Assembly: GCA_000004985.1 (NCBI GenBank)
Contig: GG738934.1
Source: Naegleria gruberi
Taxonomy: Eukaryota
Strand: one strand, 5' to 3'
DNA: 64,000 bases
Part shown: positions 1 to 64,000 of the stretch, piece by piece
Position numbering within the stretch: position 1 is the first letter of the stretch
How the letters are laid out: every line of letters begins with the position of its first letter
The notes under the pieces: model-generated
What the model saw: the letters and a program-made list of their open reading frames with translations, nothing else
Told to the model about the DNA's origin: nothing
The model's database searches: none
Made by a program: the position numbers and the translations under genes

Positions 1-332
1 NNNNNNNNNNNNNNNNNNNNNNNNNNNNNNNNNNNNNNNNNNNNNNNNNNNNNNNNNNNNNNNNNNNNNNNNNNNNNNNNNNNNNNNNNNNNNNNNNNNN
101 NNNNNNNNNNNNNNNNNNNNNNNNNNNNNNNNNNNNNNNNNNNNNNNNNNNNNNNNNNNNNNNNNNNNNNNNNNNNNNNNNNNNNNNNNNNNNNNNNNNN
201 NNNNNNNNNNNNNNNNNNNNNNNNNNNNNNNNNNNNNNNNNNNNNNNNNNNNNNNNNNNNNNNNNNNNNNNNNNNNNNNNNNNNNNNNNNNNNNNNNNNN
301 NNNNNNNNNNNNNNNNNNNNNNNNNNNNNNNN
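1..332. other. Assembly gap (N run) at window start
   Basis: 332 consecutive N characters; sequence begins at 333. Confidence 0.99.
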
Positions 333-17750: not shown

Positions 17751-20408
17751 TTACTTTTTAACTTTCATTCTTTCCTTGGCCTTCATCTTGGTCAACTTTT
17801 TAACCATTTCAAAGTGTCTGGTTCTGGCTTCTCCTTTGATTTCAGAGGATAAGTTTTCAAATCCATCACGCTTAGAAATTTCTTCAAAGTTTTGGCTGAT
17901 ACATTTGATGCAGTTGTTCTTGAGAGCCAAGTCATTGTAAACATCGACCAAGAAGGATAATTCCAAAACATTATCAACAGTAATATGTTGGATGACAATA
18001 GTTCTACAATAGTTGGCCAACTCGTTCAATTGGAAGAGAAGTGAACAGATGAATACTTCTACAGCATGTTCAATAGAAACAATAATCTCATTAGTGTACA
18101 AATATTTGAGGACACTCAAGAGACCATTAAGACTGATTTCATCAAACTTGATAACACCTGTGGTTGTTTCTTCCATTCCAGAGCTGAAAACTGTTGAGAT
18201 GTAATTGGATCTACAGATGAATAATTTGTGAGCTCTCAATTCATTAAGCAACTCTCCAGTATGTGGATCTAATAATTGAATGGTAACATCTGCATAATTA
18301 TTCTCAGCACATGGCTCTCTGATAAAATTGTCCATAGTATCTTCAATATTTTGATACAATGCAGAGCAATCGTGCTTGAGTTGGTTCAAAACAGCAGTAG
18401 AGCTATCCAAGTAGAGTCTCTTTTGGTCGCAAACGGAGAGAATAATTCCATAACGATCAATATCCAACTTGGAAATGTTCAATAATTCTTGCAAACATTC
18501 AGTATTGACAGTATCAGGAATAATAATATCACCAGTATACAAGAATCTAATGAAAATATTCATGGTATCCAAGTGATAGTCATTGAGTTCAAAGATAGAC
18601 TTTCCATCAACCATATCTACATCATTGAGACCGACCAACAAGTCCTTGAAATAGGTAGATCTGGATGAAACCAAACACTTGTGGACATAGATGTATTCAG
18701 TTTCACCACTGGTTCTTTCAGCAACTTTCAAAATAAGGTCATATCCACTGAGATCACCATTAGCTTGTTTTTCAAATTCATTCTTAAGATAAATGTAAGA
18801 ACTATTTTCCACACCAATATCAGAACATTCCTTGAGGACAACAACTTCTTTGCAATAACTTCTCTTGGCATAATCTGTCATACCTCCAATCATGTACAAT
18901 TGACCTTGATCGTAGAGTGTAGTATGATCAGCTCTTGGTAATTGCAAGTCTCTTGGAGTAGTAATTCCATTTCCGTACAAGACATACTCTGATGGACCTC
19001 CTGGATTGATGACTGCAAATTCATTATTCTTTACATCAAATCTGTAAATGACATCACTGATAGTATTGCCACGCAAAATACCACCAGTAAGGTAAATGTA
19101 TTGGTCAATGCAATTACAAAGGGAGTGATTTCTCATTGGTGGTGGAATAAAGGTCAAGTCAATTTCATTCCATTTCTTACTGACAATGTCATATCTGTGA
19201 AGATCATTCAACAAGTTGTCCTTTTGGGTATAATTACCACCAAAGATGAAAATAGAATTACCAACAGTACACTGAGCATGATTTTCTCTTGGTAAAGGGA
19301 TGGCCTTTGGATTGGCAATATTTGCCAAATCTCTAGTCATGCTGAATTCAATAACTCCATTTTGAACTTTACTCCAGAAGGTTCTTCTCACCATATTATA
19401 TTCAACAAATTGATTTGTTAAAACTCCATTAACATCACGGCCACCAAAAGACCAGAACTTAGGTTCATTATTGGATTTCGAAAGAGAATGACCTGTTGTT
19501 TCTCTAACTGCCTTGGTTATTGTTTCAACTGAGACATTCATCCAAACAGGAATTGGTGGATTACTCTTATCAATCTTATTGGCAGGTGTTGGTTTAATCA
19601 ATTCCAAGTAATTCTTCAAAGCCATACAAGTATGCTTGAAATCATACCAAATCAAATATTCTCCCAAAATAAGGATGATGTGGCCTTCTATTGCAGGAGG
19701 GAATAACATATCGGTAAGGTTTTGTTTTCTATAATAATTAAACATATTTTCCTTCATGTCAACCCACTTTTTCTCCTTCACTTCATAACAAACTAATTGT
19801 GAATAAATTCTTCCTGATTTACCACCTCCTGATAAAAAGACAAGACTGCCATGAGCAGATCCAGCCATCTTACCAAGGGAAAGATCAACACTTTGTTTGA
19901 TAACTTTTTGTTCAAATACTTTGAATTTTCTTCGTTGTTGAGCATCTTCATCGTCGGAATTGTCTACTGCAACACTATTAGTCACTTCAAAACGAGAGGT
20001 ATCAACTTTATCGTAGTGCAATTTGTGGCTTTCAATATCCTTCATAGTAAACTTCATCTGATTCAATTTTCTATTCTCCAATTTACTATAAACAGAGTCC
20101 CAATTCACGTTTTCCTTGCTCTTCTTTTCTTCAACTTGTACAATGATAATTCTATTGGCATCATCTTGTTCCTTCTTCTTCTTATTCTTTGGAACAATTC
20201 TCTTCTGTTCACCAGTAGAAACCATCGAGTGTGATTTAAAGTGATCAACCAAATCATCCACTCCGTCCACTTCATCTTCTTCTTCATCAGACTCTTCTCT
20301 GCCATATAATTTTAAACGTTGTTCCTCGATGGACCATTCATTCTCTTCTTCATTATACTCGTCATCATCATCCGAACAATAATCAAGTTCTGCCAAGTAT
20401 CTGCTCAT
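17751..20408 (-). CDS. LZTR1-like protein: acidic N-terminus, about 5-6 Kelch repeats, then two BTB domains.
   Basis: Kelch blades: LSGGGKSGRIY, SFGGRDVNGV, IFGGNYTQKDNLLNDLHRYD..KKW, LTGGILRGNTISDVIYRFD, MIGGMTDYAKRSY. BTB-like blocks follow: DLSGYDLILKVAERTSGETEYIYVHKCLVSSRSTYFKDLL and ADVTIQLLDPHTGELLNELRAHKLFICRSNYISTVF. Domain order matches LZTR1. Confidence 0.8.
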   Translation of the reverse strand: MSRYLAELDYCSDDDDEYNEEENEWSIEEQRLKLYGREESDEEEDEVDGVDDLVDHFKSHSMVSTGEQKRIVPKNKKKKEQDDANRIIIVQVEEKKSKENVNWDSVYSKLENRKLNQMKFTMKDIESHKLHYDKVDTSRFEVTNSVAVDNSDDEDAQQRRKFKVFEQKVIKQSVDLSLGKMAGSAHGSLVFLSGGGKSGRIYSQLVCYEVKEKKWVDMKENMFNYYRKQNLTDMLFPPAIEGHIILILGEYLIWYDFKHTCMALKNYLELIKPTPANKIDKSNPPIPVWMNVSVETITKAVRETTGHSLSKSNNEPKFWSFGGRDVNGVLTNQFVEYNMVRRTFWSKVQNGVIEFSMTRDLANIANPKAIPLPRENHAQCTVGNSIFIFGGNYTQKDNLLNDLHRYDIVSKKWNEIDLTFIPPPMRNHSLCNCIDQYIYLTGGILRGNTISDVIYRFDVKNNEFAVINPGGPSEYVLYGNGITTPRDLQLPRADHTTLYDQGQLYMIGGMTDYAKRSYCKEVVVLKECSDIGVENSSYIYLKNEFEKQANGDLSGYDLILKVAERTSGETEYIYVHKCLVSSRSTYFKDLLVGLNDVDMVDGKSIFELNDYHLDTMNIFIRFLYTGDIIIPDTVNTECLQELLNISKLDIDRYGIILSVCDQKRLYLDSSTAVLNQLKHDCSALYQNIEDTMDNFIREPCAENNYADVTIQLLDPHTGELLNELRAHKLFICRSNYISTVFSSGMEETTTGVIKFDEISLNGLLSVLKYLYTNEIIVSIEHAVEVFICSLLFQLNELANYCRTIVIQHITVDNVLELSFLVDVYNDLALKNNCIKCISQNFEEISKRDGFENLSSEIKGEARTRHFEMVKKLTKMKAKERMKVKK

Positions 20409-22010: not shown

Positions 22011-23498
22011 TTAAAAATTGTTCCTCATTGAAATATTCAATAAATTATTGGCTACGTGATTGGCAATTGCTAGAGATGATGTCAAGCCAGGAGATTCTAT
22101 TCCAATAAGGTTGATGAACTGCTTGGAGAGTGTTGGTGTTTTAGAGTTATTTGGCAGAGCATCAGAAAGAGTTTCAATAATGAAATCTCTGAATTTGTCT
22201 CCAGGTTTTTGTAATTTTGGTCGAATGCCAACATAATCGGCATGTAAATTCTCTAGGGATAAACCTGTCATGTAGTTTGAGATGGATTGGAAGAAAGCTT
22301 GTCCTCTCACATTGTTCACATTATCAATCTTATAATGAGGATATAATCGATAGGACAGTGTATCCATATTTGCATCTCCAACCATTTGTTTGGAATATTG
22401 CTCTGGGAATAAATCCCTAGCTTTACCAATGTAATTACTGTCAGGTCCAAACTTTAAATTTCCATTCAAATCAAGAGTTGAATGAGTTCCAAGACCATGA
22501 ACAAGTCCCTTACTATCTGGGGGAACTGGATAGATTAAATGTTTAATCTGATGAGAAGCTCTATATTTGAAGTAGTGTCCCTTGAAATAATGTAAATGAT
22601 ATTGCTCTGGAAGATTCATACCATTTGTAAAATCTGAATAGGCCAATTCTGCAATTCTTTCAGAATCTAATCCAGCACTATTTACAATATTATCAGCAAT
22701 AACATTCACTCTATCAATTTGACCATGTTGTCCAATACAGCACAATTCCACAAGGAAATTATTATTGTATTGATAAATGTTGTGAACTTTGGTATTGTTA
22801 ATAAATGTTGAATTTTCACTTGATTGAATCATTTCCAACAATCTGGACATTAGAGTGGCCGAGCAAACAATACCAGTGCTCTGAGAATAGAGAGCCACAT
22901 CACTTTTAACATTAGGTTCCTTCTCATTCAATTCTTCCTTTGAAATGAATACTAATTTCTTCATTCTTCCTCTCTCATCATACTTTTCAAAATTTTCATT
23001 ACTTTTCCTCTTCATACTATTCAAATATTCAACATCGTGATCATTACTCGAATTGGCAACAATAAACTTGCCAATATTTCTATAGGGAATATTAAATTCT
23101 TCACAAAAATCATATAATAATGAATTTCCCCTGATGCATAATTTAGTTTTCAAACTCTCTGGTTCATAGTACAATCCTGCATGAATAACTTCACTATTCC
23201 GAGCACTTGTTTCCATGCCAATGAATGAATTTCTCTCCACAACAAGAGTTTGATAATCCGACTTGGAAACACTTGATGATTTGCTGTTGTTGGCTTCTCT
23301 AGATAATCTGGCAGCAATAGCCAATCCAACAACTCCACTTCCAATCACTAGATTTTCAACTCTTATTGTTTCAATGCTATTTGATGGAGAAGAAGAGAAA
23401 GTTGATGATGAAAATGAAAAATTGAATTCTTGTTGATGTTTAAAAGGGAACCGTGAAGACATTCTCTTCACAGACAAAGCACTTCCCAATCTTTTCAT
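22011..23498 (-). CDS. L-2-hydroxyglutarate dehydrogenase (FAD-dependent, DAO family), with a mitochondrial-type presequence and a lineage-specific Asn/Lys-rich insert.
   Basis: FAD fold VENLVIGSGVVGLAIAARL. ..EVIHAGLYYEPESLKTKLCIRGNSLLYDFCEEFNIPYRNIGKFIVA.. aligns with human L2HGDH ..[45 protein letters not shown]... ..LIYPVPPDSKGLVHGLG.. aligns with ..NIYPVPDSRFPFLGVH.. Confidence 0.8.
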   Translation of the reverse strand: MKRLGSALSVKRMSSRFPFKHQQEFNFSFSSSTFSSSPSNSIETIRVENLVIGSGVVGLAIAARLSREANNSKSSSVSKSDYQTLVVERNSFIGMETSARNSEVIHAGLYYEPESLKTKLCIRGNSLLYDFCEEFNIPYRNIGKFIVANSSNDHDVEYLNSMKRKSNENFEKYDERGRMKKLVFISKEELNEKEPNVKSDVALYSQSTGIVCSATLMSRLLEMIQSSENSTFINNTKVHNIYQYNNNFLVELCCIGQHGQIDRVNVIADNIVNSAGLDSERIAELAYSDFTNGMNLPEQYHLHYFKGHYFKYRASHQIKHLIYPVPPDSKGLVHGLGTHSTLDLNGNLKFGPDSNYIGKARDLFPEQYSKQMVGDANMDTLSYRLYPHYKIDNVNNVRGQAFFQSISNYMTGLSLENLHADYVGIRPKLQKPGDKFRDFIIETLSDALPNNSKTPTLSKQFINLIGIESPGLTSSLAIANHVANNLLNISMRNNF

Positions 23499-23630: not shown

Positions 23631-24143
23631 ATGTTCTCCAAAGAACGTATTCAAAAGGAAAAGGAACAAAAGAAATCGTGTCCAAAGGAAGTTACTGCTC
23701 GAGTGCCTGGATATCAACTTCGTATTCAGCAAGAGCTAGAAAATCTGGACAAGGAATGGCTCGATCACTTGGTCATTGCAGATACTAATAAATTGGATAA
23801 GATGACTATTACCATTGTTCCAAGTGAAGGAATATGGAAGAATCATCCACATGAATTTGAATTGATCATTCCTCATGAATATCCTCATAAAGCACCTAAT
23901 ATTATTTGTAAAACTAGAATTTGGCATCCGAATATTGATGAAAATGGTTTGGTGGATTTGAACTTGAGGTATTTATTCAAACCAACGATGGGATTGAAGG
24001 ATTTCTTTGTTGGTGTTCTATTCCTTATGCTTGAGCCCAATCCACTCGATCCACAAAATTATAAGGCTGGAAGGCAGTTTTTAGATGAACCGGAAGGATT
24101 CAAACAAAAGGCAAATAATTACATGAAGGGTATCTACCAGTAG
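23631..24143 (+). CDS. UBC-fold E2 of the UBC12/UBE2M (NEDD8-conjugating) type, with the catalytic Cys replaced by Asp.
   Basis: The N-terminal extension ..QLRIQQELENLDK.. resembles UBE2M ..AQLRIQKDINEL... ..EYPHKAPNIICKTRIWHPNIDENGLVDLNLR.. aligns with UBE2M ..[31 protein letters not shown]... The codon at the Cys position is GAT. ..LEPNPLDP.. matches ..LEPNPEDP... Confidence 0.8.
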   Translation: MFSKERIQKEKEQKKSCPKEVTARVPGYQLRIQQELENLDKEWLDHLVIADTNKLDKMTITIVPSEGIWKNHPHEFELIIPHEYPHKAPNIICKTRIWHPNIDENGLVDLNLRYLFKPTMGLKDFFVGVLFLMLEPNPLDPQNYKAGRQFLDEPEGFKQKANNYMKGIYQ

Positions 24144-28499: not shown

Positions 28500-31322
28500 T
28501 TGAATTTTAATAAGCAATTTAATAAGCAAGAGAAGAAGAAGATGAATCCTAACAAGCCTAAACCTCCTCCACTCACCATCATTACTAAAAATCATCAGAC
28601 GAACAATTGTACCTCCACAACAACAACAATATCCTTCTCTTCCACCACTAATGGAGCAGCAAGAATTGGTATGAGTAATGATAGTGGAAGTCCTCTACAA
28701 AGAGTGACAGCAAGTTCGGGAGAATATCAACGTTCGGGAAGTACAACTGAGAGACCATTATTTGTGAGGAATAATTCATCCCCTCAAGTTGTTACATCAT
28801 TTGGTTTTGGTAGTCCACCAGGAAGTCCATCATCAACCTCAAATTCCAGTAGAAAGAACAGTCATACAGCCATTCATCCATTTCAGCACCAGAATAGTGA
28901 TAATAGAACTAGTATTAATAGAGATTTAATGTTACCTTTTGATTTTTGTAAGAAGGAAGATGAAACATCGAAATGGATGAAGTTTTACTTGTGTTGTTTG
29001 AGTTTGAGAGTGAAAACCATGTCTGTACTAATGTTGACATTTCTAATGATTATGGCCATGTGTTTGATTGGATTAGTCATTTCCTTTGATGTTTCATTTG
29101 ATAGTGTTGAAAAGAAAGAAGCATTAGATTCATCTAGAAAGACTGCCAAAGCTCTCTTTGATGATTTTAAATTCATTTCAGAGAAGGTCTATGATTTTGC
29201 CTCTTGGGATGATTCGTATTCTATTATGAAGACTGAAAATACGACAATTGCCGACAAGATGTTGGATCTCTATTTTTCTTGTGCCTATATGAAAAGAGCT
29301 GGTATTAATTTTTCAATCATGTACTATCCAAATGGTACCTTTTTTAATGGAAGAGCTTGTTTCGACATGTGGAAAATACCTGAATTTCCAGATGAATTGA
29401 AAGCTTTAAGTACAAGCTTTTTTCAAACAGACGACAATTACAATGGTAAGATTGTCACTTCTTCTGCCTTCCAAGCAGTATTTACTCCAAGAAGGAATTT
29501 GGCTCAATTATTTAGTTCTAATTCTCAAGTACCTGCTAATAGTTTTGTAAATGCAACAAATATCATCTTGGCAGTTGCCCTACCAATACAACCAAACAAT
29601 AATTCTGATCAGAATGGTGTATTTCTCTACGGAAGATACATGACACAGTCACTCAGTGATGATATCTCTGTCAGAACTCAATACTGTACCACTTTTTTTG
29701 ATCTCACCAATAATGAGGATTTAAATCTACTAGAAGATGACTTTAAAAATTTTCAAGGTCAACTCAATAACAAGTCAGCAACCAAAGTGAGTATCAAGTA
29801 TCAGAGTTGGGCTGACGACGAGCCATTCTATTACTCGTACAATATGAAATACTCTTCCAGCAAGAGGAGAAGTTGTGCTGAAACCTACACTAAAGAATAT
29901 TACACTTCAAGAATGGCAACTTATCAATTATATTCTGATTACAATAATTCAAATAGTATTGTCATTAGAACTGATTTTAATAGAGAGATTTATCAAGTTG
30001 GTTGGACATCATTTATGTATACTTGTTTTGTTTTGATAGCTATTGTTTTTACACTCCTTATTGCAGTCATGATCTTTGTAGAATGTGTTGTTTTGAGAAG
30101 AATTTTGAAAATTGGATCTACCGTAAAAAGCATTACCAAAACTAATGATATTTCCAAGAGAGTTCCCAATTCAGGATTTGATGAATTGGGACGTTTATGT
30201 AAGGATATTAACCACATGTTGATGGCATTGGAAGAGTCACAAATTAAACTTGCTAAAGACAACCAAATAATGCAACAATTGCTGGAAAAAACAGCCCTCG
30301 AAGAACAAAAATCCAGATGTGTTATGAATAGTATCTCAGACTTTATTGTCACTGTAGAGTGTGATACTGGGCTTTTAGTCAACATCAATACAGCATTTGA
30401 AAACAAGCTTTTAAAAAAGAATTCCTTTGCTAGATCCAACTCGGCGAGCCACTTAACTTATGCACCTACTCAATCCTCCTCTCCTAATTCTCCAAATTCA
30501 CCAAATTCACCAGGAGATCCTCCTCTAATAAGAAGATCAACAGTTTCACCACCAACACCAAACTCTAAGAATATTTTTGAAACTCACAATATTATGGAGT
30601 ATATTAAGGATTTTGAATCATATGACGAGTTGAAAGAATTGTTAGAATCACTCTCTAAAAATAACAATGGTTCCTTGCATCATGAAACATACATTCAGAA
30701 TGATTTCTCTATCAAATATCATGTGAGCGTTAGTGTCACCAAAGTGAAAATGACCATCAGAGAAGGTTTAATTGGAGATGCCTACATTGTTCTTTTGAGA
30801 AATATGGTTGAGCAAAAGGAATTGAAGAATATTCTTACAAAACAACAAGAAAAACTCGAAGAAATGAAGAAAATTTCAGAATTTAACAGAATTTTCAAAG
30901 ATCCTCATTGGAGAGAATTGTTCAAAGTATTTGCAGCTAGTGAACTTTCAGCTGAGAATGTTCACTTTTTGGAAGATATTGAAACTTACAAGTCGCTCTC
31001 AAAAACAAGAGACAGAGCAGCACTCTTGGAAGAAATGGTCAACAAGTATTTACTACCTGAATCACCTTATCCTTTAAATGTTTCCAAAAAGACAGTTGAG
31101 ACTGAAATTAAAAAGATCACCTCGGGTTACGGACAGCTAGACTTATTTGATAAGATTGAATCAATTATTAAGCTAATGGTTGTGAATGACACATTCTCCA
31201 GATTTCTTTCCAGTAAGATCTTTAGAGATTCTTCTGCCAATGATCTTTCAAGAACTTCCTCTTCTCTTACTAATGGCCAAATAGATGCAATTTCAGAAAC
31301 CCAAGTCAGTTTGGATGTGTAA
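28500..31322 (+). CDS. Receptor-like RGS protein: TM1, extracytoplasmic sensor region, TM2, HAMP, PAS, C-terminal RGS domain.
   Basis: TM1 MSVLMLTFLMIMAMCLIGLVISF and TM2 FMYTCFVLIAIVFTLLIAVMIFVECVVL flank a ~270-aa N-glycosylation-rich loop. HAMP: RRILKIGSTVKSITKTNDISKRVPNSGFDELGRLCKDINHMLMALEE. PAS-like: RCVMNSISDFIVTVECDTGLLVNINTAFE... RGS: ..WRELFKVFAASELSAENVHFLEDIETYKSL..DTFSRFLSSKIF. Poly-Pro/Ser and SPNSPNSPNSP low-complexity tracts. Confidence 0.8.
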   Translation: MNFNKQFNKQEKKKMNPNKPKPPPLTIITKNHQTNNCTSTTTTISFSSTTNGAARIGMSNDSGSPLQRVTASSGEYQRSGSTTERPLFVRNNSSPQVVTSFGFGSPPGSPSSTSNSSRKNSHTAIHPFQHQNSDNRTSINRDLMLPFDFCKKEDETSKWMKFYLCCLSLRVKTMSVLMLTFLMIMAMCLIGLVISFDVSFDSVEKKEALDSSRKTAKALFDDFKFISEKVYDFASWDDSYSIMKTENTTIADKMLDLYFSCAYMKRAGINFSIMYYPNGTFFNGRACFDMWKIPEFPDELKALSTSFFQTDDNYNGKIVTSSAFQAVFTPRRNLAQLFSSNSQVPANSFVNATNIILAVALPIQPNNNSDQNGVFLYGRYMTQSLSDDISVRTQYCTTFFDLTNNEDLNLLEDDFKNFQGQLNNKSATKVSIKYQSWADDEPFYYSYNMKYSSSKRRSCAETYTKEYYTSRMATYQLYSDYNNSNSIVIRTDFNREIYQVGWTSFMYTCFVLIAIVFTLLIAVMIFVECVVLRRILKIGSTVKSITKTNDISKRVPNSGFDELGRLCKDINHMLMALEESQIKLAKDNQIMQQLLEKTALEEQKSRCVMNSISDFIVTVECDTGLLVNINTAFENKLLKKNSFARSNSASHLTYAPTQSSSPNSPNSPNSPGDPPLIRRSTVSPPTPNSKNIFETHNIMEYIKDFESYDELKELLESLSKNNNGSLHHETYIQNDFSIKYHVSVSVTKVKMTIREGLIGDAYIVLLRNMVEQKELKNILTKQQEKLEEMKKISEFNRIFKDPHWRELFKVFAASELSAENVHFLEDIETYKSLSKTRDRAALLEEMVNKYLLPESPYPLNVSKKTVETEIKKITSGYGQLDLFDKIESIIKLMVVNDTFSRFLSSKIFRDSSANDLSRTSSSLTNGQIDAISETQVSLDV

Positions 31323-43282: not shown

Positions 43283-46200
43283 ATGNNNNNNNNNNNNNNN
43301 NNNNNNNNNNNNNNNNNNNNNNNNNNNNNNNNNNNATTTGAGAGCTCTCTTCAAACTAAAGTATTTGATAAAGAAATTGATGAAGAGCTTGTAAAATATG
43401 CTACATCCAAAAGGAATAGAATGTCTGCAAGTACTTTGATAATGAGTGCCATTTATACTTCAACCTTTCATGATAATCCTCAATTTTCTATTAATACTTT
43501 GAAATATGCGTTAAGACAAGCATCATTCGTTCAGAAAATAACCATCAACTCCAAGATTAAGGAAATTGAAGTTAGACACGGCTATCAAATGACAACCGAG
43601 TTTAGTACTATGCTGCTACAAGCTCAAAAGGTGGAAAATAGATTGCTAATGTTCAGAAAATTGTTTTGGCAATACTTTGTTAGCAATGAAGACGATCAAA
43701 ACAAAATTAACGCTATCGTTCATGCCATGTACAAAACTTTTGAGGAAGGAAAGGTAATTTATGACCTGCTAGTTGTTTCCAATCCTGAAAATCAAGTTCT
43801 AGCAAAAAAGAGAGCGTTATATTTTGATAATTTCTTATTTAGAAAGGTAATGACCAGTAAGAAGTCATCACCTTCTTTGAATAAGGAAGCTACTGGTGAG
43901 GATAGCAAATCGACAATTTCGAACAGGTCTACACAGAATCCAGAGGTAACAAAGAGCCAACAGGTACAAGTGAATGATCAAGCCCACGAATACACTGAAA
44001 AGGTGTACAGAGAGGCAATTAATACCAAGTTTACTATGAAACTAACCTTCCTATTTTTGATTTATGATGCCATTGCTCTGCTAGCTATTTCAGTTGGAAT
44101 AATTATTGGTGTAATCTCTTCTCTTCATGGAGATGAACTTGTAAGAATCTTACACGCCTGTCAATTCACTAATGTTCCGTATTCTCTATTGAGGGAAGTT
44201 AGATTGGCTTATTATTTTAGAAATGATCCTTCCACTTATAATTTTAACAATTTTTATGAAAGAATTACTGCTTTAAAGCACCTTACAGAAGATGGCAAAA
44301 TTAAAAGCTATTCACATCTTTCTGGAGATGCTTTAAACTATTACTCTGGGAATAACTTCCCAGTCATGGTACCCACAATTTCTGCTGATAATAGAGTATC
44401 CTATAAGTGGCAAAATGTATCAATTGCCTCCTTGATATCCGATATCGAAGTAGTTGTCAACAAGTTAAATTCATGGAATATTAACAGCTTCCAAAATTTA
44501 GAGAGCAATTATGAATATTTGTACCTCTCATTTAACCATGAATTAACATCTGGGTATATGGACCAGTATTGCCAGTCTCTCACAAATGGAGTGGTAAATC
44601 ACCCATACGATGAGGCAGTAATAGTCAACTCTGTTTTGTTAGGTCTACTTGTAGTAGCCACTGTTATTGTAATCGTATTACTAGCAACACTTAATATCAA
44701 AGAAAAGATAATCAGTCTCTTTTCAAAAATACCAAAAGATATTGTGGGAATTCTGAATATTGAGTTGGAAAAGCAAACTGATAAGAAGTGCGACAATAGC
44801 TCATACTCTGAAATATTTACATTCAAAGTGAAATTGTTGATGGTTCTTTTGGTAATATTTCTAGTTTGTGTTACTTCCTTATCAGTAACATTTTATGAAG
44901 CTTACAGTTTAGATTTCAGTTCTAGAAGCTCAACTTTAAAGCTTGGTTACATGTCTTCCCTACTGATAAATCTTCATAAGGATCAATTAATACTAGAAAA
45001 CAAGATTATTAATGGATCTAGCAATAGTTTGGGTTCTTCCAACAATGCTATTGAACGTTCATGGATCGTTTTTAGATATGGTAACCATAACTATCCAACA
45101 ACTTTACATTCTATATCAAGCAATGCCAAGTTCTTACTTGAAGGTAATAGTAGTTGTGGTACAATTAATTGCACAGGTCTTGATTCATTATTAGAGAAAT
45201 ATGTAATGAATATGGACTCTATTGCCTTCAGTACTAAATTGTCCAATTCCACTCTTGTAATGTTTTCCACCCTACTCTCTGCAATTTCAGCTAAGATACA
45301 TTCTCTTGGAGATGATTTAGTAGATCCAATAGTGGGTGTTCAAACCAAATTGGCTCTTGGTGTTTTCTCTGGAGCTTTTGTTTTGATATTGATTATTGCA
45401 GGATTACACTACGCAGAGCTGCGAGAATATGTTGATGAATGTAATCACACAAGAAGTATGCTTAGTATGATACCTTTTGATATAATTTCGCANNNNNNNN
45501 NNNNNNNNNNNNNNNNNNNNNNNNNNNNNNNNNNNNNNNNNNATATTTGGTGAAGGTCAAAACTCTGTTTCTTTAAAGGCAGTACTAGATAAGTTATTGG
45601 TTGCTACCGAATCTGCTGGAGAACATTTGGAATTGGAAGCAGTCAGAAAGAATGGCAGTTCTCTCTCAGTTGGTGTGTCCGTATCTGTTTTCCACCATGA
45701 AAATAAGAATCTAATTACAATGCTATTGAGGGATATTACTTTCGAAAAAAAGGTATGTTTTTGTCACCTAATTCTAATAATTGAATCATAATAATATTAT
45801 TATAATATTCCATTAAATAATCAATAGCACAAATTATTGCTGGCAGAGGAGAGGAAGAAAAGTGATAATCTACTATTGAACATTCTACCAGAACGTATTG
45901 CTCAAAGATTGAAAGCTGGTGAGACAAGTATCTCTGAAAAGTTTGATGATTGTACATGTCTGTTCAGTGATATGGTTGGTTTCACCAAAATGTCATCAGG
46001 TCTCACTGCCTATGAATTGGTGCAACTTCTCAATTCAATTATTAATGGTTTCGATTCTTATATTACCCCTCTCGGTTTGGAGAAGATCAAGACGATTGGA
46101 GATGCTTACTTTTGTGTAGGAGGACTGAATGGACAGACAGATCACCCGGAAAAAGTAATTACATTTGCCATTCACATGCTATCTGTCATTAATAACTACA

Positions 46201-60037: not shown

Positions 60038-62974
60038 NNNNNNNNNNNNNNNNNNNNNNNNNNNNNNNNNNNNNNNNNNNNNNNNNNNNNNNNNNNNNNN
60101 NNNNNNNNNNNNNNNNNNNNNNNNNNNNNNNNNNNNNNNNNNNNNNNNNNNNNNNNNNNNNNNNNNNNNNNNNNNNNNNNNNNNNNNNNNNNNNNNNNNN
60201 NNNNNNNNNNNNNNNNNNNNNNNNNNNNNNNNNNNNNNNNNNNNNNNNNNNNNNNNNNNNNNNNNNNNNNNNNNNNNNNNNNNNNNNNNNNNNNNNNNNN
60301 NNNNNNNNNNNNNNNNNNNNNNNNNNNNNNNNNNNNNNNNNNNNNNNNNNNNNNNNNNNNNNNNNNNNNNNNNNNNNNNNNNNNNNNNNNNNNNNNNNNN
60401 NNNNNNNNNNNNNNNNNNNNNNNNNNNNNNNNNNNNNNNNNNNNNNNNNNNNNNNNNNNNNNNNNNNNNNNNNNNNNNNNNNNNNNNNNNNNNNNNNNNN
60501 NNNNNNNNNNNNNNNNNNNNNNNNNNNNNNNNNNNNNNNNNNNNNNNNNNNNNNNNNNNNNNNNNNNNNNNNNNNNNNNNNNNNNNNNNNNNNNNNNNNN
60601 NNNNNNNNNNNNNNNNNNNNNNNNNNNNNNNNNNNNNNNNNNNNNNNNNNNNNNNNNNNNNNNNNNNNNNNNNNNNNNNNNNNNNNNNNNNNNNNNNNNN
60701 NNNNNNNNNNNNNNNNNNNNNNNNNNNNNNNNNNNNNNNNNNNNNNNNNNNNNNNNNNNNNNNNNNNNNNNNNNNNNNNNNNNNNNNNNNNNNNNNNNNN
60801 NNNNNNNNNNNNNNNNNNNNNNNNNNNNNNNNNNNNNNNNNNNNNNNNNNNNNNNNNNNNNNNNNNNNNNNNNNNNNNNNNNNNNNNNNNNNNNNNNNNN
60901 NNNNNNNNNNNNNNNNNNNNNNNNNNNNNNNNNNNNNNNNNNNNNNNNNNNNNNNNNNNNNNNNNNNNNNNNNNNNNNNNNNNNNNNNNNNNNNNNNNNN
61001 NNNNNNNNNNNNNNNNNNNNNNNNNNNNNNNNNNNNNNNNNNNNNNNNNNNNNNNNNNNNNNNNNNNNNNNNNNNNNNNNNNNNNNNNNNNNNNNNNNNN
61101 NNNNNNNNNNNNNNNNNNNNNNNNNNNNNNNNNNNNNNNNNNNNNNNNNNNNNNNNNNNNNNNNNNNNNNNNNNNNNNNNNNNNNNNNNNNNNNNNNNNN
61201 NNNNNNNNNNNNNNNNNNNNNNNNNNNNNNNNNNNNNNNNNNNNNNNNNNNNNNNNNNNNNNNNNNNNNNNNNNNNNNNNNNNNNNNNNNNNNNNNNNNN
61301 NNNNNNNNNNNNNNNNNNNNNNNNNNNNNNNNNNNNNNNNNNNNNNNNNNNNNNNNNNNNNNNNNNNNNNNNNNNNNNNNNNNNNNNNNNNNNNNNNNNN
61401 NNNNNNNNNNNNNNNNNNNNNNNNNNNNNNNNNNNNNNNNNNNNNNNNNNNNNNNNNNNNNNNNNNNNNNNNNNNNNNNNNNNNNNNNNNNNNNNNNNNN
61501 NNNNNNNNNNNNNNNNNNNNNNNNNNNNNNNNNNNNNNNNNNNNNNNNNNNNNNNNNNNNNNNNNNNNNNNNNNNNNNNNNNNNNNNNNNNNNNNNNNNN
61601 NNNNNNNNNNNNNNNNNNNNNNNNNNNNNNNNNNNNNNNNNNNNNNNNNNNNNNNNNNNNNNNNNNNNNNNNNNNNNNNNNNNNNNNNNNNNNNNNNNNN
61701 NNNNNNNNNNNNNNNNNNNNNNNNNNNNNNNNNNNNNNNNNNNNNNNNNNNNNNNNNNNNNNNNNNNNNNNNNNNNNNNNNNNNNNNNNNNNNNNNNNNN
61801 NNNNNNNNNNNNNNNNNNNNNNNNNNNNNNNNNNNNNNNNNNNNNNNNNNNNNNNNNNNNNNNNNNNNNNNNNNNNNNNNNNNNNNNNNNNNNNNNNNNN
61901 NNNNNNNNNNNNNNNNNNNNNNNNNNNNNNNNNNNNNNNNNNNNNNNNNNNNNNNNNNNNNNNNNNNNNNNNNNNNNNNNNNNNNNNNNNNNNNNNNNNN
62001 NNNNNNNNNNNNNNNNNNNNNNNNNNNNNNNNNNNNNNNNNNNNNNNNNNNNNNNNNNNNNNNNNNNNNNNNNNNNNNNNNNNNNNNNNNNNNNNNNNNN
62101 NNNNNNNNNNNNNNNNNNNNNNNNNNNNNNNNNNNNNNNNNNNNNNNNNNNNNNNNNNNNNNNNNNNNNNNNNNNNNNNNNNNNNNNNNNNNNNNNNNNN
62201 NNNNNNNNNNNNNNNNNNNNNNNNNNNNNNNNNNNNNNNNNNNNNNNNNNNNNNNNNNNNNNNNNNNNNNNNNNNNNNNNNNNNNNNNNNNNNNNNNNNN
62301 NNNNNNNNNNNNNNNNNNNNNNNNNNNNNNNNNNNNNNNNNNNNNNNNNNNNNNNNNNNNNNNNNNNNNNNNNNNNNNNNNNNNNNNNNNNNNNNNNNNN
62401 NNNNNNNNNNNNNNNNNNNNNNNNNNNNNNNNNNNNNNNNNNNNNNNNNNNNNNNNNNNNNNNNNNNNNNNNNNNNNNNNNNNNNNNNNNNNNNNNNNNN
62501 NNNNNNNNNNNNNNNNNNNNNNNNNNNNNNNNNNNNNNNNNNNNNNNNNNNNNNNNNNNNNNNNNNNNNNNNNNNNNNNNNNNNNNNNNNNNNNNNNNNN
62601 NNNNNNNNNNNNNNNNNNNNNNNNNNNNNNNNNNNNNNNNNNNNNNNNNNNNNNNNNNNNNNNNNNNNNNNNNNNNNNNNNNNNNNNNNNNNNNNNNNNN
62701 NNNNNNNNNNNNNNNNNNNNNNNNNNNNNNNNNNNNNNNNNNNNNNNNNNNNNNNNNNNNNNNNNNNNNNNNNNNNNNNNNNNNNNNNNNNNNNNNNNNN
62801 NNNNNNNNNNNNNNNNNNNNNNNNNNNNNNNNNNNNNNNNNNNNNNNNNNNNNNNNNNNNNNNNNNNNNNNNNNNNNNNNNNNNNNNNNNNNNNNNNNNN
62901 NNNNNNNNNNNNNNNNNNNNNNNNNNNNNNNNNNNNNNNNNNNNNNNNNNNNNNNNNNNNNNNNNNNNNNNNNN
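60038..62974. other. 2937-N assembly gap in the subtelomere
   Basis: Continuous N run. ORFs reported across it are artifacts. Confidence 0.99.
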
Positions 62975-63775
62975 CAATGGTATCAACAGTTATATGATTC
63001 ATGATAGTTTAAAATTGCGTTGGTCATCTAAGGATAGGTCATTAAGGTTTGAATGAATTGATATGAAATTCAATACCAATTATTGATATACCATGATTTA
63101 TTGATCTATATATGATATTATAATTGAAATATTTTAAAATTAATATCATTTGACTATTTTGACATTCATAATTCTCATGATTACACTCCTGACATGTTGG
63201 ATGATTTCATATTGTCTTGAAACTGATATACTAGTGTTTGTACACCACTAGTAAGGTACTGTATCAGTTTCATGATGATCTGTATAGTGGATGTAATTGT
63301 CACATCCCTGTAGGTGTCAAGTAGATCAGCCAAGTACCATGTATGATATGGATGATCTTCAAAATCAAATAGATATATTTAATTATCATGTATAGATGTA
63401 TTAGAAGTGAATTGAAGTGGAAAAGATTTCTATCTTCAGTGTTAGTATAGGTCAGTTGACAAGTTGAATAGTAAACATCCTGAAATGATACCAAAGTATT
63501 TGAAATTGATATATATTGTTATTAACATGATTTAAAAGGTGATATATTGATTTGAAATGATTTTGAAATGTTTTCATTGATATTCTAATTGTCTAATCTA
63601 TTATATGAAATTAACTTATATAAGTCATTATAATGATGTAATATTATGTTATATTATGATTATATATTCAATTTGGAGTATATTGATATATAATATATTG
63701 ATTTATAATGAGTATTTATTGAGATAATTAATTAAGAAGAATAAAAGTCAAAAGGTTGGGTCTGACCTTAGTCGT
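62975..63775. repeat. AT-rich, gene-free telomere-associated sequence with short local direct repeats
   Basis: No credible ORF. Repeated motifs such as tatgatatggatgatc, atatattgat and ttatgttatattatgattatat. It ends in the degenerate telomere-like ggttgggtctgacc just before the array. Confidence 0.6.
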
Positions 63776-64000
63776 GGGTTTGGGTTTGGGTTTGGGTTTG
63801 GGTTTGGGTTTGGGTTTGGGTTTGGGTTTGGGTTTGGGTTTGGGTTTGGGTTTGGGTTTGGGTTTGGGTTTGGGTTTGGGTTTGGGTTTGGGTTTGGGTT
63901 TGGGTTTGGGTTTGGGTTTGGGTTTGGGTTTGGGTTTGGGTTTGGGTTTGGGTTTGGGTTTGGGTTTGGGTTTGGGTTTGGGTTTGGGTTTGGGTTTGGG
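63776..64000 (+). repeat. Telomeric repeat array (GGGTTT)n = (TTTGGG)n. The G-rich strand runs 5'->3' toward the window end, so this is the chromosome terminus.
   Basis: About 37 perfect tandem hexamers continuing to the last base of the window. Confidence 0.9.

What the first reader, a model, noticed from the sequence alone, without database searches (positions are those of the whole stretch)
23631..24143. NEDD8-E2 (UBC12/UBE2M)-like gene with the catalytic cysteine replaced by aspartate
The ORF aligns collinearly with UBE2M. This includes the N-terminal extension that docks the NEDD8 E1, the HPNI motif and the LEPNP block. At the active-site position the sequence reads HPNIDENGLVDLNL (codon GAT) where UBE2M has [15 protein letters not shown]. 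No intron can rescue this, because the flanking residues align in frame. This is either a catalytically dead UEV-like paralog, perhaps a decoy or regulator of neddylation located in the subtelomere, or, less likely, an E2 with atypical chemistry.
Basis: partly seen in the sequence, partly recalled or inferred. Interest (0 to 1): 0.6.

Follow-up and report, generated by a model that had tools for sequence, protein, structure and literature searches.

The report
Cysteine-less NEDD8 E2 in Naegleria
Naegleria gruberi has an intact gene for a UBC12-type NEDD8-conjugating enzyme whose catalytic cysteine is replaced by aspartate, so it is most likely a non-catalytic "pseudo-E2", and no cysteine-bearing copy from this species appeared in the protein databases searched.

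Summary
ORF 23631-24143 (+) is N. gruberi NAEGRDRAFT_76085 (XP_002668983.1), 170 aa. It is a confident UBC-fold protein whose best matches are UBC12/UBE2M. Codon 109 (GAT, 23955-23957) puts Asp where the catalytic Cys belongs, and one residue is deleted just after it. Relatives carry TGT there, so two adjacent base changes are needed, which makes a base-call error unlikely.

It groups with heterolobosean UBC12 proteins. Its closest relative (51% identical, unknown organism) and Willaertia magna both keep Cys. The whole Naegleria-type lineage evolves fast, and the Asp form is no faster than its Cys-bearing sister. The first nine residues, which align with UBC12's docking peptide, are 8/9 identical to Willaertia, and HPN and LEPNP are kept. 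This fits a maintained, catalytically dead pseudo-E2.

Three other UBC12-like proteins from unidentified organisms also carry Asp at this position, through at least two independent origins. In a profile alignment, human MMS2 has Asp there too.

"Paralog/decoy" is not shown. No second N. gruberi UBC12 turned up, but the genome itself could not be searched. Function is inferred. I rate it a new variant of a known kind, of moderate interest.

The parts
23631..24143 (+). Complete single-exon CDS (170 codons plus TAG) of N. gruberi NAEGRDRAFT_76085 / XP_002668983.1, a UBC12-family protein
   Evidence: ORF list. 100% identical to the NCBI protein. Pfam UQ_con E 1.6e-25. AF2 model with mean pLDDT 89.5 and a UBC fold. 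Gene GC is 36.6% against 20-23% in the flanks.
23631..23720 (+). N-terminal extension (residues 1-30) ahead of the UBC core. Residues 1-9, MFSKERIQK, align with UBC12's E1/DCN1 docking peptide.
   Evidence: The Pfam core starts at residue 31. The model has a helix at residues 4-16. Residues 1-9 are 8/9 identical to Willaertia magna UBC12 (MFSKNRIQK), against about 50% identity overall. Binding itself is inferred, not tested.
23925..23933 (+). HPN motif (H99-P100-N101), retained
23955..23957 (+). GAT codon, Asp109, at the position of the catalytic cysteine (UBE2M Cys111). One residue is deleted directly after the following Leu-Asn.
   Evidence: HMMER alignments to 2nvu_C, 4p5o_I and 1y8x_A. Codon read-out. 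TGT at the same position in L001 and in Willaertia L010.
24030..24044 (+). LEPNP block (residues 134-138), retained

Best explanation
The ORF is a real, intact N. gruberi gene for a UBC12 (NEDD8-E2) family protein that has lost its nucleophile. An aspartate cannot accept NEDD8 from the E1 as a thioester, so the protein is a pseudo-E2. In working principle it resembles the UEV proteins, but it derives from the NEDD8 branch.

It keeps the UBC fold, the HPN and LEPNP motifs, the Phe-Lys-Pro version of the WKP stretch, and the extreme N-terminal peptide. In UBC12 that peptide docks onto the NEDD8 E1 (UBA3) and DCN1. The most likely mode of action is therefore non-catalytic binding to the neddylation machinery (E1, DCN1 or RBX1-cullin). 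It could act as a competitor, regulator or adaptor.

Shown here: family, fold, Asp at the catalytic position, an intact ORF, and no extra acceleration relative to the Cys-bearing sister.
Inferred: catalytic inactivity, from E2 chemistry, and partner binding.
Open: whether an active NEDD8 E2 exists elsewhere in the genome.
For: - Family and fold. The top Foldseek hits are Ubc12 structures 2nvu_C and 1y8x_A.
- Asp at the Cys column.
- Not a base-call slip: relatives have TGT, so two adjacent changes plus a 3-bp deletion are needed.
- Placement: the protein groups with the Cys-bearing P0002 (94% bootstrap) and then with Willaertia UBC12 (59%).
- Rates: the P0001 and P0002 branches are equal (25 vs 21 unique changes, chi2 0.35). 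Both are far faster than Willaertia (48:8 and 45:8, chi2 28.6 and 25.8). Losing Cys therefore did not bring additional relaxation.
- Signs of maintenance: the ORF has the same length as P0002, with conserved start and end. The N-terminal nonapeptide is 8/9 identical to Willaertia. Coding-type GC is higher than in the flanks.
- Asp recurs at this column in three further UBC12-like proteins (P0058, P0139, P0171), all with GAT where the DNA was checked. These do not group with P0001.
- Human MMS2 Asp99 aligns to the same column in a UBC12-family HMM. Asp is thus a repeated outcome at Cys-less E2 active sites.
- Reported components consistent with a neddylation cycle in the genus: a CSN8 homolog in N. 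gruberi (PMC4860701), CSN5 with a JAMM motif in N. fowleri (PMC7531848), and nine cullin genes in the genus pangenome (PMC9928731).
Against: - No Cys-bearing UBC12 from N. gruberi was found for it to regulate.
- The protein deviates at 15 of 43 columns that are at least 80% conserved, the most of 61 family members. The region after the active site is degenerate (LN-LRYLFKP). Both also fit decay.
- A test of whether its lineage-specific substitutions are more conservative than neutral was not significant (P = 0.13).
- No expression data or literature exists for this protein.
- Binding to E1, DCN1 or RBX1 is untested.
Confidence: 0.55

Rival explanations
1. It is a relic. This is the only UBC12 ortholog of N. 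gruberi, the lineage's UBC12 has been drifting, and the gene is on its way to becoming a pseudogene because cullin neddylation is dispensable or lost in this organism. It would have no maintained function.
For: - Strong lineage-wide acceleration: 48:8 unique changes against Willaertia.
- The highest number of deviations at conserved columns, 15 of 43.
- A degenerate active-site neighbourhood.
- No other N. gruberi UBC12 in the searches.
- The conservativeness test was not significant.
Against: - The 170-codon ORF is intact in an AT-rich genome, where 5.3% of random point mutations in this gene would create a stop.
- Length and termini match those of P0002.
- The N-terminal docking peptide is 8/9 identical to Willaertia.
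- The rate is no higher than in the Cys-bearing sister.
- CSN subunits and cullins are reported in Naegleria (PMC4860701, PMC7531848, PMC9928731).
Confidence: 0.22
2. It is a true extra paralog, acting as a decoy or regulator. A canonical Cys-bearing NEDD8 E2 exists elsewhere in the N. gruberi genome, either unannotated or in an assembly gap.
For: - The closest relative's contig (L001, Logan SRR20330754) carries two UBC12-like genes in tandem, so duplication happens in this lineage.
- The scaffold has gaps.
- Components consistent with a neddylation cycle are reported in the genus (PMC4860701, PMC7531848).
Against: - Searches seeded with Acrasis UBC12 and with a Naegleria-type profile that includes the second tandem copy returned no second N. 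gruberi protein.
- There is no second E2 in the 64-kb window.
- All three Naegleria-type sequences are divergent, so a conservative copy may not exist in this clade.
Confidence: 0.3
3. It is an active E2 with unusual chemistry. NEDD8 would be carried on Asp109 as an acyl anhydride, or on another cysteine (C17 or C93).
For: HPN, including the Asn that established E2 knowledge assigns to oxyanion stabilisation, is retained. It may be the only UBC12-like protein in a genome with CSN and cullins. P0139 has a Cys two residues before its Asp.
Against: No E2 is known to use a carboxylate. Transfer from a thioester to a mixed anhydride is energetically uphill (general chemistry). C93 aligns with a conserved, non-catalytic residue in strand beta4, and C17 lies in a linker with pLDDT below 50. 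The LNILREDW region around the active site is degenerate.
Confidence: 0.03
4. It is a sequencing or assembly artefact, or a private mutation of the laboratory strain.
For: Only one assembly carries this exact protein. Reads could not be inspected.
Against: TGT to GAT needs two adjacent substitutions, accompanied by an in-frame 3-bp deletion and 25 further lineage-specific replacements. The same Asp occurs in independent sequences from other samples.
Confidence: 0.03

Closest known systems
UBC12 / UBE2M (RCE1 in plants), the NEDD8-conjugating E2
   Same: Best sequence and structure match. It has a UBC core plus an N-terminal extension, HPN, LEPNP and a KP-containing loop. It is nested among heterolobosean UBC12 sequences from Willaertia, Acrasis and Pharyngomonas.
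   Different: The catalytic Cys is replaced by Asp. One residue is deleted in LNIL. W is replaced by F and E by Y in the REDWKP stretch. It deviates at 15 of 43 highly conserved family positions. It cannot carry NEDD8 as a thioester (inferred from E2 chemistry).
UEV proteins (UBE2V1/UEV1A, UBE2V2/MMS2)
   Same: UBC fold without the catalytic Cys. In a UBC12-family profile alignment, human MMS2 has Asp99 in the Cys column within a matching G-x-V-D context (and for the pairwise alignment). This suggests the same working principle: a non-catalytic E2-like binding module.
   Different: It is not homologous at subfamily level (25% identity, E 0.001). UEVs have lost HPN (MMS2 reads 'NMNGIN'), whereas this protein keeps it. 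UEVs pair with UBC13 in ubiquitin K63 chain building. No partner is known here. It derives from the NEDD8 branch, not the ubiquitin branch.
Other Cys-less E2-like domains (TSG101 UEV domain, Drosophila Morgue UEV domain with Gly at the active site; PMC3787007)
   Same: They are precedents for E2 folds retained as binding domains after loss of the nucleophile.
   Different: They come from different subfamilies, have different replacement residues, and are usually embedded in multidomain proteins. This one is a stand-alone protein of UBC12 size.
Experimental UBC12 active-site mutants (for example C111A in the trapped E1-E2 complex 2nvu)
   Same: The mutant E2 still docks onto the NEDD8 E1 in the solved complex, whose title names Ubc12(C111A). 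This shows that loss of the Cys need not abolish partner binding.
   Different: Those are engineered human proteins. Here the change is natural, to Asp, and comes with many further substitutions.

Membership tests
E2 / UBC superfamily (Pfam PF00179 UQ_con) | UBC alpha/beta fold | tested here: met
   UQ_con 89.7 bits against a cut-off of 27. AF2 model with pLDDT 89.5 and pTM 0.78, showing four strands and the C-terminal helices. Foldseek top 50 hits are all E2s, TM about 0.75.
E2 / UBC superfamily (Pfam PF00179 UQ_con) | HPN motif upstream of the active site | tested here: met
   H99-P100-N101
E2 / UBC superfamily (Pfam PF00179 UQ_con) | Catalytic cysteine that forms the thioester | tested here: not met
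   Asp109 (GAT) occupies the column that is Cys in 142 of 150 closest representatives.
UBC12/UBE2M NEDD8-E2 subfamily | Closest similarity and phylogenetic placement with UBC12 orthologs | tested here: met
   The top four PDB sequence hits are Ubc12. The closest named relatives are Willaertia and Acrasis UBC12. The neighbour-joining tree places it with P0002 (94%) and Willaertia (59%).
UBC12/UBE2M NEDD8-E2 subfamily | N-terminal extension that docks to UBA3 and, via acetyl-Met1, to DCN1 | tested here: inconclusive
   A 30-residue extension is present, and residues 1-9 are 8/9 identical to Willaertia UBC12. Docking itself cannot be tested with these tools.
UBC12/UBE2M NEDD8-E2 subfamily | Forms a NEDD8 thioester and neddylates cullins | not testable with these tools
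   Needs biochemistry. The absence of the Cys predicts that it does not.
UBC12/UBE2M NEDD8-E2 subfamily | Conserved [10 protein letters not shown] active-site surround | tested here: not met
   It reads LN-LRYLFKP, with I deleted and the changes E114Y and W116F.
UEV family (UEV1/MMS2 type) | UBC fold lacking the catalytic Cys | tested here: met
   Asp is also the residue in the MMS2 column.
UEV family (UEV1/MMS2 type) | Sequence membership in the UEV1/MMS2 clade, with HPN lost | tested here: not met
   25% identity and E 0.001 to human MMS2, against E 1e-23 to Ubc12. HPN is retained.
UEV family (UEV1/MMS2 type) | Heterodimer with an active E2 (UBC13) | not testable with these tools
   No interaction data.

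The most novel reading that the evidence does not exclude
N. gruberi has no cysteine-bearing NEDD8 E2 at all. Its single UBC12 ortholog has become an Asp-containing pseudo-E2 that is still maintained, with its docking peptide, HPN and fold intact, even though cullins and the COP9 signalosome persist. Cullin neddylation in this free-living eukaryote would then be either lost or charged by a different E2. Cys-to-Asp conversion of UBC12 would be a recurrent evolutionary outcome, with at least two origins among UBC12-like sequences (the other three are from unidentified organisms) and a parallel in the Asp of UEV1/MMS2.
Probability: 0.22. Interest if true: 0.7.

Novelty: new variant of a known kind. 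Interest (0 to 1): 0.45.

Why it matters
Pseudo-E2s are known from the ubiquitin branch (UEV1/MMS2, TSG101, Morgue). My literature searches found no description of a NEDD8-E2-derived one.

If this protein is maintained, it is a natural, cysteine-less UBC12 that may still bind the NEDD8 E1, DCN1 or RBX1. That would be a built-in regulator of cullin neddylation, and a natural counterpart of the engineered active-site mutants used to trap these complexes.

If it is the only UBC12 in the genome, N. gruberi becomes a test case for how cullin-RING ligases and the COP9 signalosome work without canonical neddylation.

Asp recurs at the dead active site even though it takes two nucleotide changes from Cys. 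This points to a structural or electrostatic reason for favouring Asp that could be tested by mutagenesis.

Tried and rejected
- **Intron or frame rescue:** the other frames around the active site are full of stops and hold no Cys-Leu-Asn stretch. Rejected.
- **Second E2 in the window:** tblastn with UBE2M and Acrasis UBC12 found only this locus.
- **Synteny with Willaertia:** tblastx of the 20-kb Willaertia locus against the window matched only the E2 gene itself. Positional orthology could not be shown.
- **Environmental relatives:** a profile-derived scan of JGI metagenome contigs found nothing. A degenerate DNA pattern for HPNIxExGxVD gave only two chance matches that are not E2 genes. That collection evidently lacks the sample that holds P0058.
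- **Canonical and Asp-type genes in one sample:** the JGI samples holding canonical heterolobosean-like UBC12s (P0004, P0005, P0007) differ from the P0058 sample. Inconclusive.
- **Selection on the P0001 branch:** the mean BLOSUM62 score of lineage-specific changes was compared with random single-nucleotide changes and was not significant (P = 0.13). dN/dS was not attempted because 51% amino-acid identity implies saturated synonymous sites.
- **Literature:** nothing on this protein, on SRR20330754, or on Naegleria NEDD8 E2s.
- **N. fowleri and N. lovaniensis orthologs:** none appeared in any search. I could not tell whether they are absent from the databases or from the genomes.
- **RNA editing:** the C-to-U editing known from heterolobosean mitochondria (my own knowledge) cannot turn GAU into UGU. 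Rejected.

Full report
**What is there.** The window comes from Naegleria gruberi. The ORF at 23631-24143 (+) translates to a 170-aa protein that is 100% identical to 'predicted protein [Naegleria gruberi]'. Its accessions are EFC36239.1, XP_002668983.1, UniProt D2W3W1 and NAEGRDRAFT_76085, on a 97.6-kb scaffold. It matches Pfam UQ_con at 89.7 bits (cut-off 27) over residues 31-164. The four best matches among solved structures are Ubc12/UBE2M chains, with E from 1.3e-23 to 1.1e-19, followed by UBE2F. An AlphaFold2 model built on a 61-sequence family alignment is confident (mean pLDDT 89.5, pTM 0.78) and shows a normal UBC fold. Its best Foldseek hits in the PDB are the Ubc12 structures 2nvu_C and 1y8x_A.

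**The active site.** The HMMER alignments to UBE2M place 'HPNIDENGLVDLN-LRYLFKP' on '[21 protein letters not shown]'. Asp109 therefore occupies the position of catalytic Cys111, and one residue is missing after Leu-Asn. The codon is GAT at 23955-23957. The other two frames in this region are closed by stops, so no splice or frameshift can supply a cysteine. The only cysteines are C17, in a linker with pLDDT below 50, and C93, a conserved non-catalytic position in strand beta4. Willaertia magna and the closest relative both have TGT at the homologous codon. GAT therefore needs two adjacent substitutions in addition to the 3-bp deletion, which is not what a base-call error looks like. Gene GC is 36.6%, against 20-23% in the flanking intergenic DNA. 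There is no assembly gap near the gene.

**How unusual it is.** I aligned the 150 closest representatives from an exhaustive HMMER search of 1.84 billion cluster representatives. The catalytic column is Cys in 142, Asp in 4, and Asn, Tyr, Gly and Ser once each. HPN is intact in 149. The four Asp forms are:
- the N. gruberi protein;
- P0058, from an 83.7-kb contig of JGI sample 3300062135, reading 'HPNITEEGIVDSNIRTSSF';
- P0139, from Logan ERR14790941, reading 'HPNIDETCVDLNLLLDYF';
- P0171, from JGI, reading 'HPNIKNEQVDLNILRSNW'.

The codon is GAT in the two whose DNA I checked. In a neighbour-joining tree these three do not group with the N. gruberi protein. That protein pairs instead with the Cys-bearing P0002, at 94% bootstrap. 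The Cys-to-Asp change therefore arose at least twice. A profile built from the UBC12 family aligns human MMS2 (UBE2V2) 'sGMVDARSI' onto 'eGkvclnil'. I checked my MMS2 sequence against PDB 1j74. This puts MMS2 Asp99 in the Cys column. The BLAST alignment of the N. gruberi protein with MMS2 agrees, although the BLAST alignment of MMS2 with UBC13 places the gap differently. Asp thus appears to be a recurrent replacement at dead E2 active sites, even though it is two mutational steps from Cys.

**Relatives and evolutionary rate.**
- The closest relative is P0002 (51% identical, 170 aa, Cys retained), on a 1.3-kb Logan contig from SRR20330754, organism unknown.
- That contig carries a second UBC12-like gene in tandem, cut off by the contig end at the HPN motif.
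- Next come Willaertia magna P0006 (about 50%, Cys) and Acrasis kona UBC12 (42%, Cys).
- All three Naegleria-type sequences share an 11-residue deletion in the N-terminal linker relative to Willaertia.
- Tajima-type relative-rate counts show no difference between the Asp form and its Cys-bearing sister: 25 vs 21 unique changes, chi2 0.35.
- Both are far faster than Willaertia, with Acrasis as outgroup: 48:8 and 45:8, chi2 28.6 and 25.8.

The acceleration is therefore a property of the whole lineage and predates the loss of Cys. The N. gruberi protein deviates at 15 of 43 columns that are at least 80% conserved in the family, the most of 61 sequences. P0002 deviates at 12. Against this background, the first nine residues (MFSKERIQK) are 8/9 identical to Willaertia's MFSKNRIQK. 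In UBC12 this peptide docks onto UBA3 and, through acetyl-Met1, onto DCN1. That is established knowledge of the family and was not tested here.

**Is there a canonical copy in N. gruberi?** I could not search the genome itself. Four protein-level searches returned no second N. gruberi UBC12-like protein:
- the protein itself;
- Acrasis UBC12 as query, which put Willaertia at 68% identity near the top of the list;
- a profile of the three Naegleria-type sequences;
- the exhaustive representative search.

No N. fowleri or N. lovaniensis ortholog appeared either. The 64-kb window holds no other E2 of this type. There is no synteny with the Willaertia locus. The literature reports a CSN8 homolog in N. 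gruberi (PMC4860701), CSN5 with a JAMM motif and CSN2 in N. fowleri (PMC7531848), and nine cullin genes in the Naegleria pangenome (PMC9928731). These components are consistent with a neddylation-deneddylation cycle in the genus. The data therefore lean toward this being the only annotated UBC12-family gene. An unannotated or unassembled second gene remains possible, since the scaffold has gaps and the sister lineage has a tandem pair.

**Interpretation.** The best-supported reading (confidence 0.55) is a maintained pseudo-E2. It is a UBC12-derived protein that cannot form a NEDD8 thioester but keeps the fold, HPN, LEPNP and the docking peptide. It most likely acts by binding components of the neddylation machinery without turnover. 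Catalytic inactivity follows from E2 chemistry. Partner binding is inference.

The rivals are:
- a decaying relic of a dispensable pathway (0.22), favoured by the degenerate active-site surround and by the non-significant conservativeness test, and disfavoured by the intact ORF, the conserved N-terminus and the unchanged rate;
- unusual chemistry (0.03);
- an artefact (0.03).

**Comparison with known systems.** By homology the protein belongs to the UBC12 branch but fails its defining catalytic feature. It works like a UEV but is not a member of the UEV1/MMS2 family: identity is 25% (E 0.001) and HPN is retained. Literature searches found no description of a Cys-less NEDD8 E2 or of this protein. 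I therefore class it as a new variant of a known kind, a pseudo-E2 from the NEDD8 branch. Interest is moderate (0.45). It would rise if genome-level searches confirm that N. gruberi has no Cys-bearing UBC12.

**Context.** The gene lies between a DAO-family FAD oxidoreductase (22011-23498, minus strand) and ORFs without Pfam matches. The window ends in 37.7 copies of TGGGTT at 63775-64000. The locus is therefore about 40 kb from a telomere-like repeat, so 'subtelomeric' holds only in a loose sense.

Noticed in passing
window 63775-64000: A perfect (TGGGTT) x 37.7 tandem array runs to the end of the window. It is a telomere-like repeat, so the scaffold appears to end at a chromosome end.
   Followed up: partly
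window 1-332, 43286-43335, 45493-45542, 60038-62974: Runs of N mark assembly gaps. The 2.9-kb gap produces three spurious overlapping ORFs of about 1000 aa on both strands in the ORF list.
   Followed up: yes
window 28500-31322 (+): A 940-aa ORF combines CHASE4 and HAMP domains with a C-terminal RGS domain. From my own knowledge, CHASE4 and HAMP are typical of bacterial signalling proteins and RGS is a eukaryotic G-protein regulator domain. This is an unusual architecture.
   Followed up: no
window 17751-20408 (-): An 885-aa Kelch-repeat plus BTB/POZ protein lies about 3 kb from the Cys-less UBC12 gene. From my own knowledge, this is the typical architecture of CUL3 substrate adaptors. The proximity is probably coincidental.
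   Followed up: no
L001 316-828 and 965-1267 (Logan SRR20330754): The closest relative's contig holds two UBC12-like genes in tandem, 137 bp apart. The first has Cys. The second is cut off at HPN by the contig end, so its active-site residue is unknown. Over the N-terminal part, the second copy is somewhat closer to Willaertia (59%) than the first copy is (55%).
   Followed up: partly
L002 10001-10546 (P0058); L003 298-804 (P0139); P0171: Three further UBC12-like proteins from unidentified organisms carry Asp at the catalytic column, with GAT where the DNA was checked. P0139 also has a Cys two residues upstream of the Asp and a loop one residue shorter.
   Followed up: partly
L009 and L010 (Willaertia magna GCA_041937235.1): The identical UBC12 protein sits on two contigs (108.7 kb and 505 kb) with the same neighbouring genes. 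These are probably haplotigs or a recent segmental duplication.
   Followed up: no
human UBE2V2 (MMS2) residue 99: In a UBC12-family HMM alignment, MMS2 Asp99 falls in the catalytic Cys column within a G-x-V-D context that matches the N. gruberi G-L-V-D. Pairwise BLAST alignments are ambiguous on this point.
   Followed up: partly
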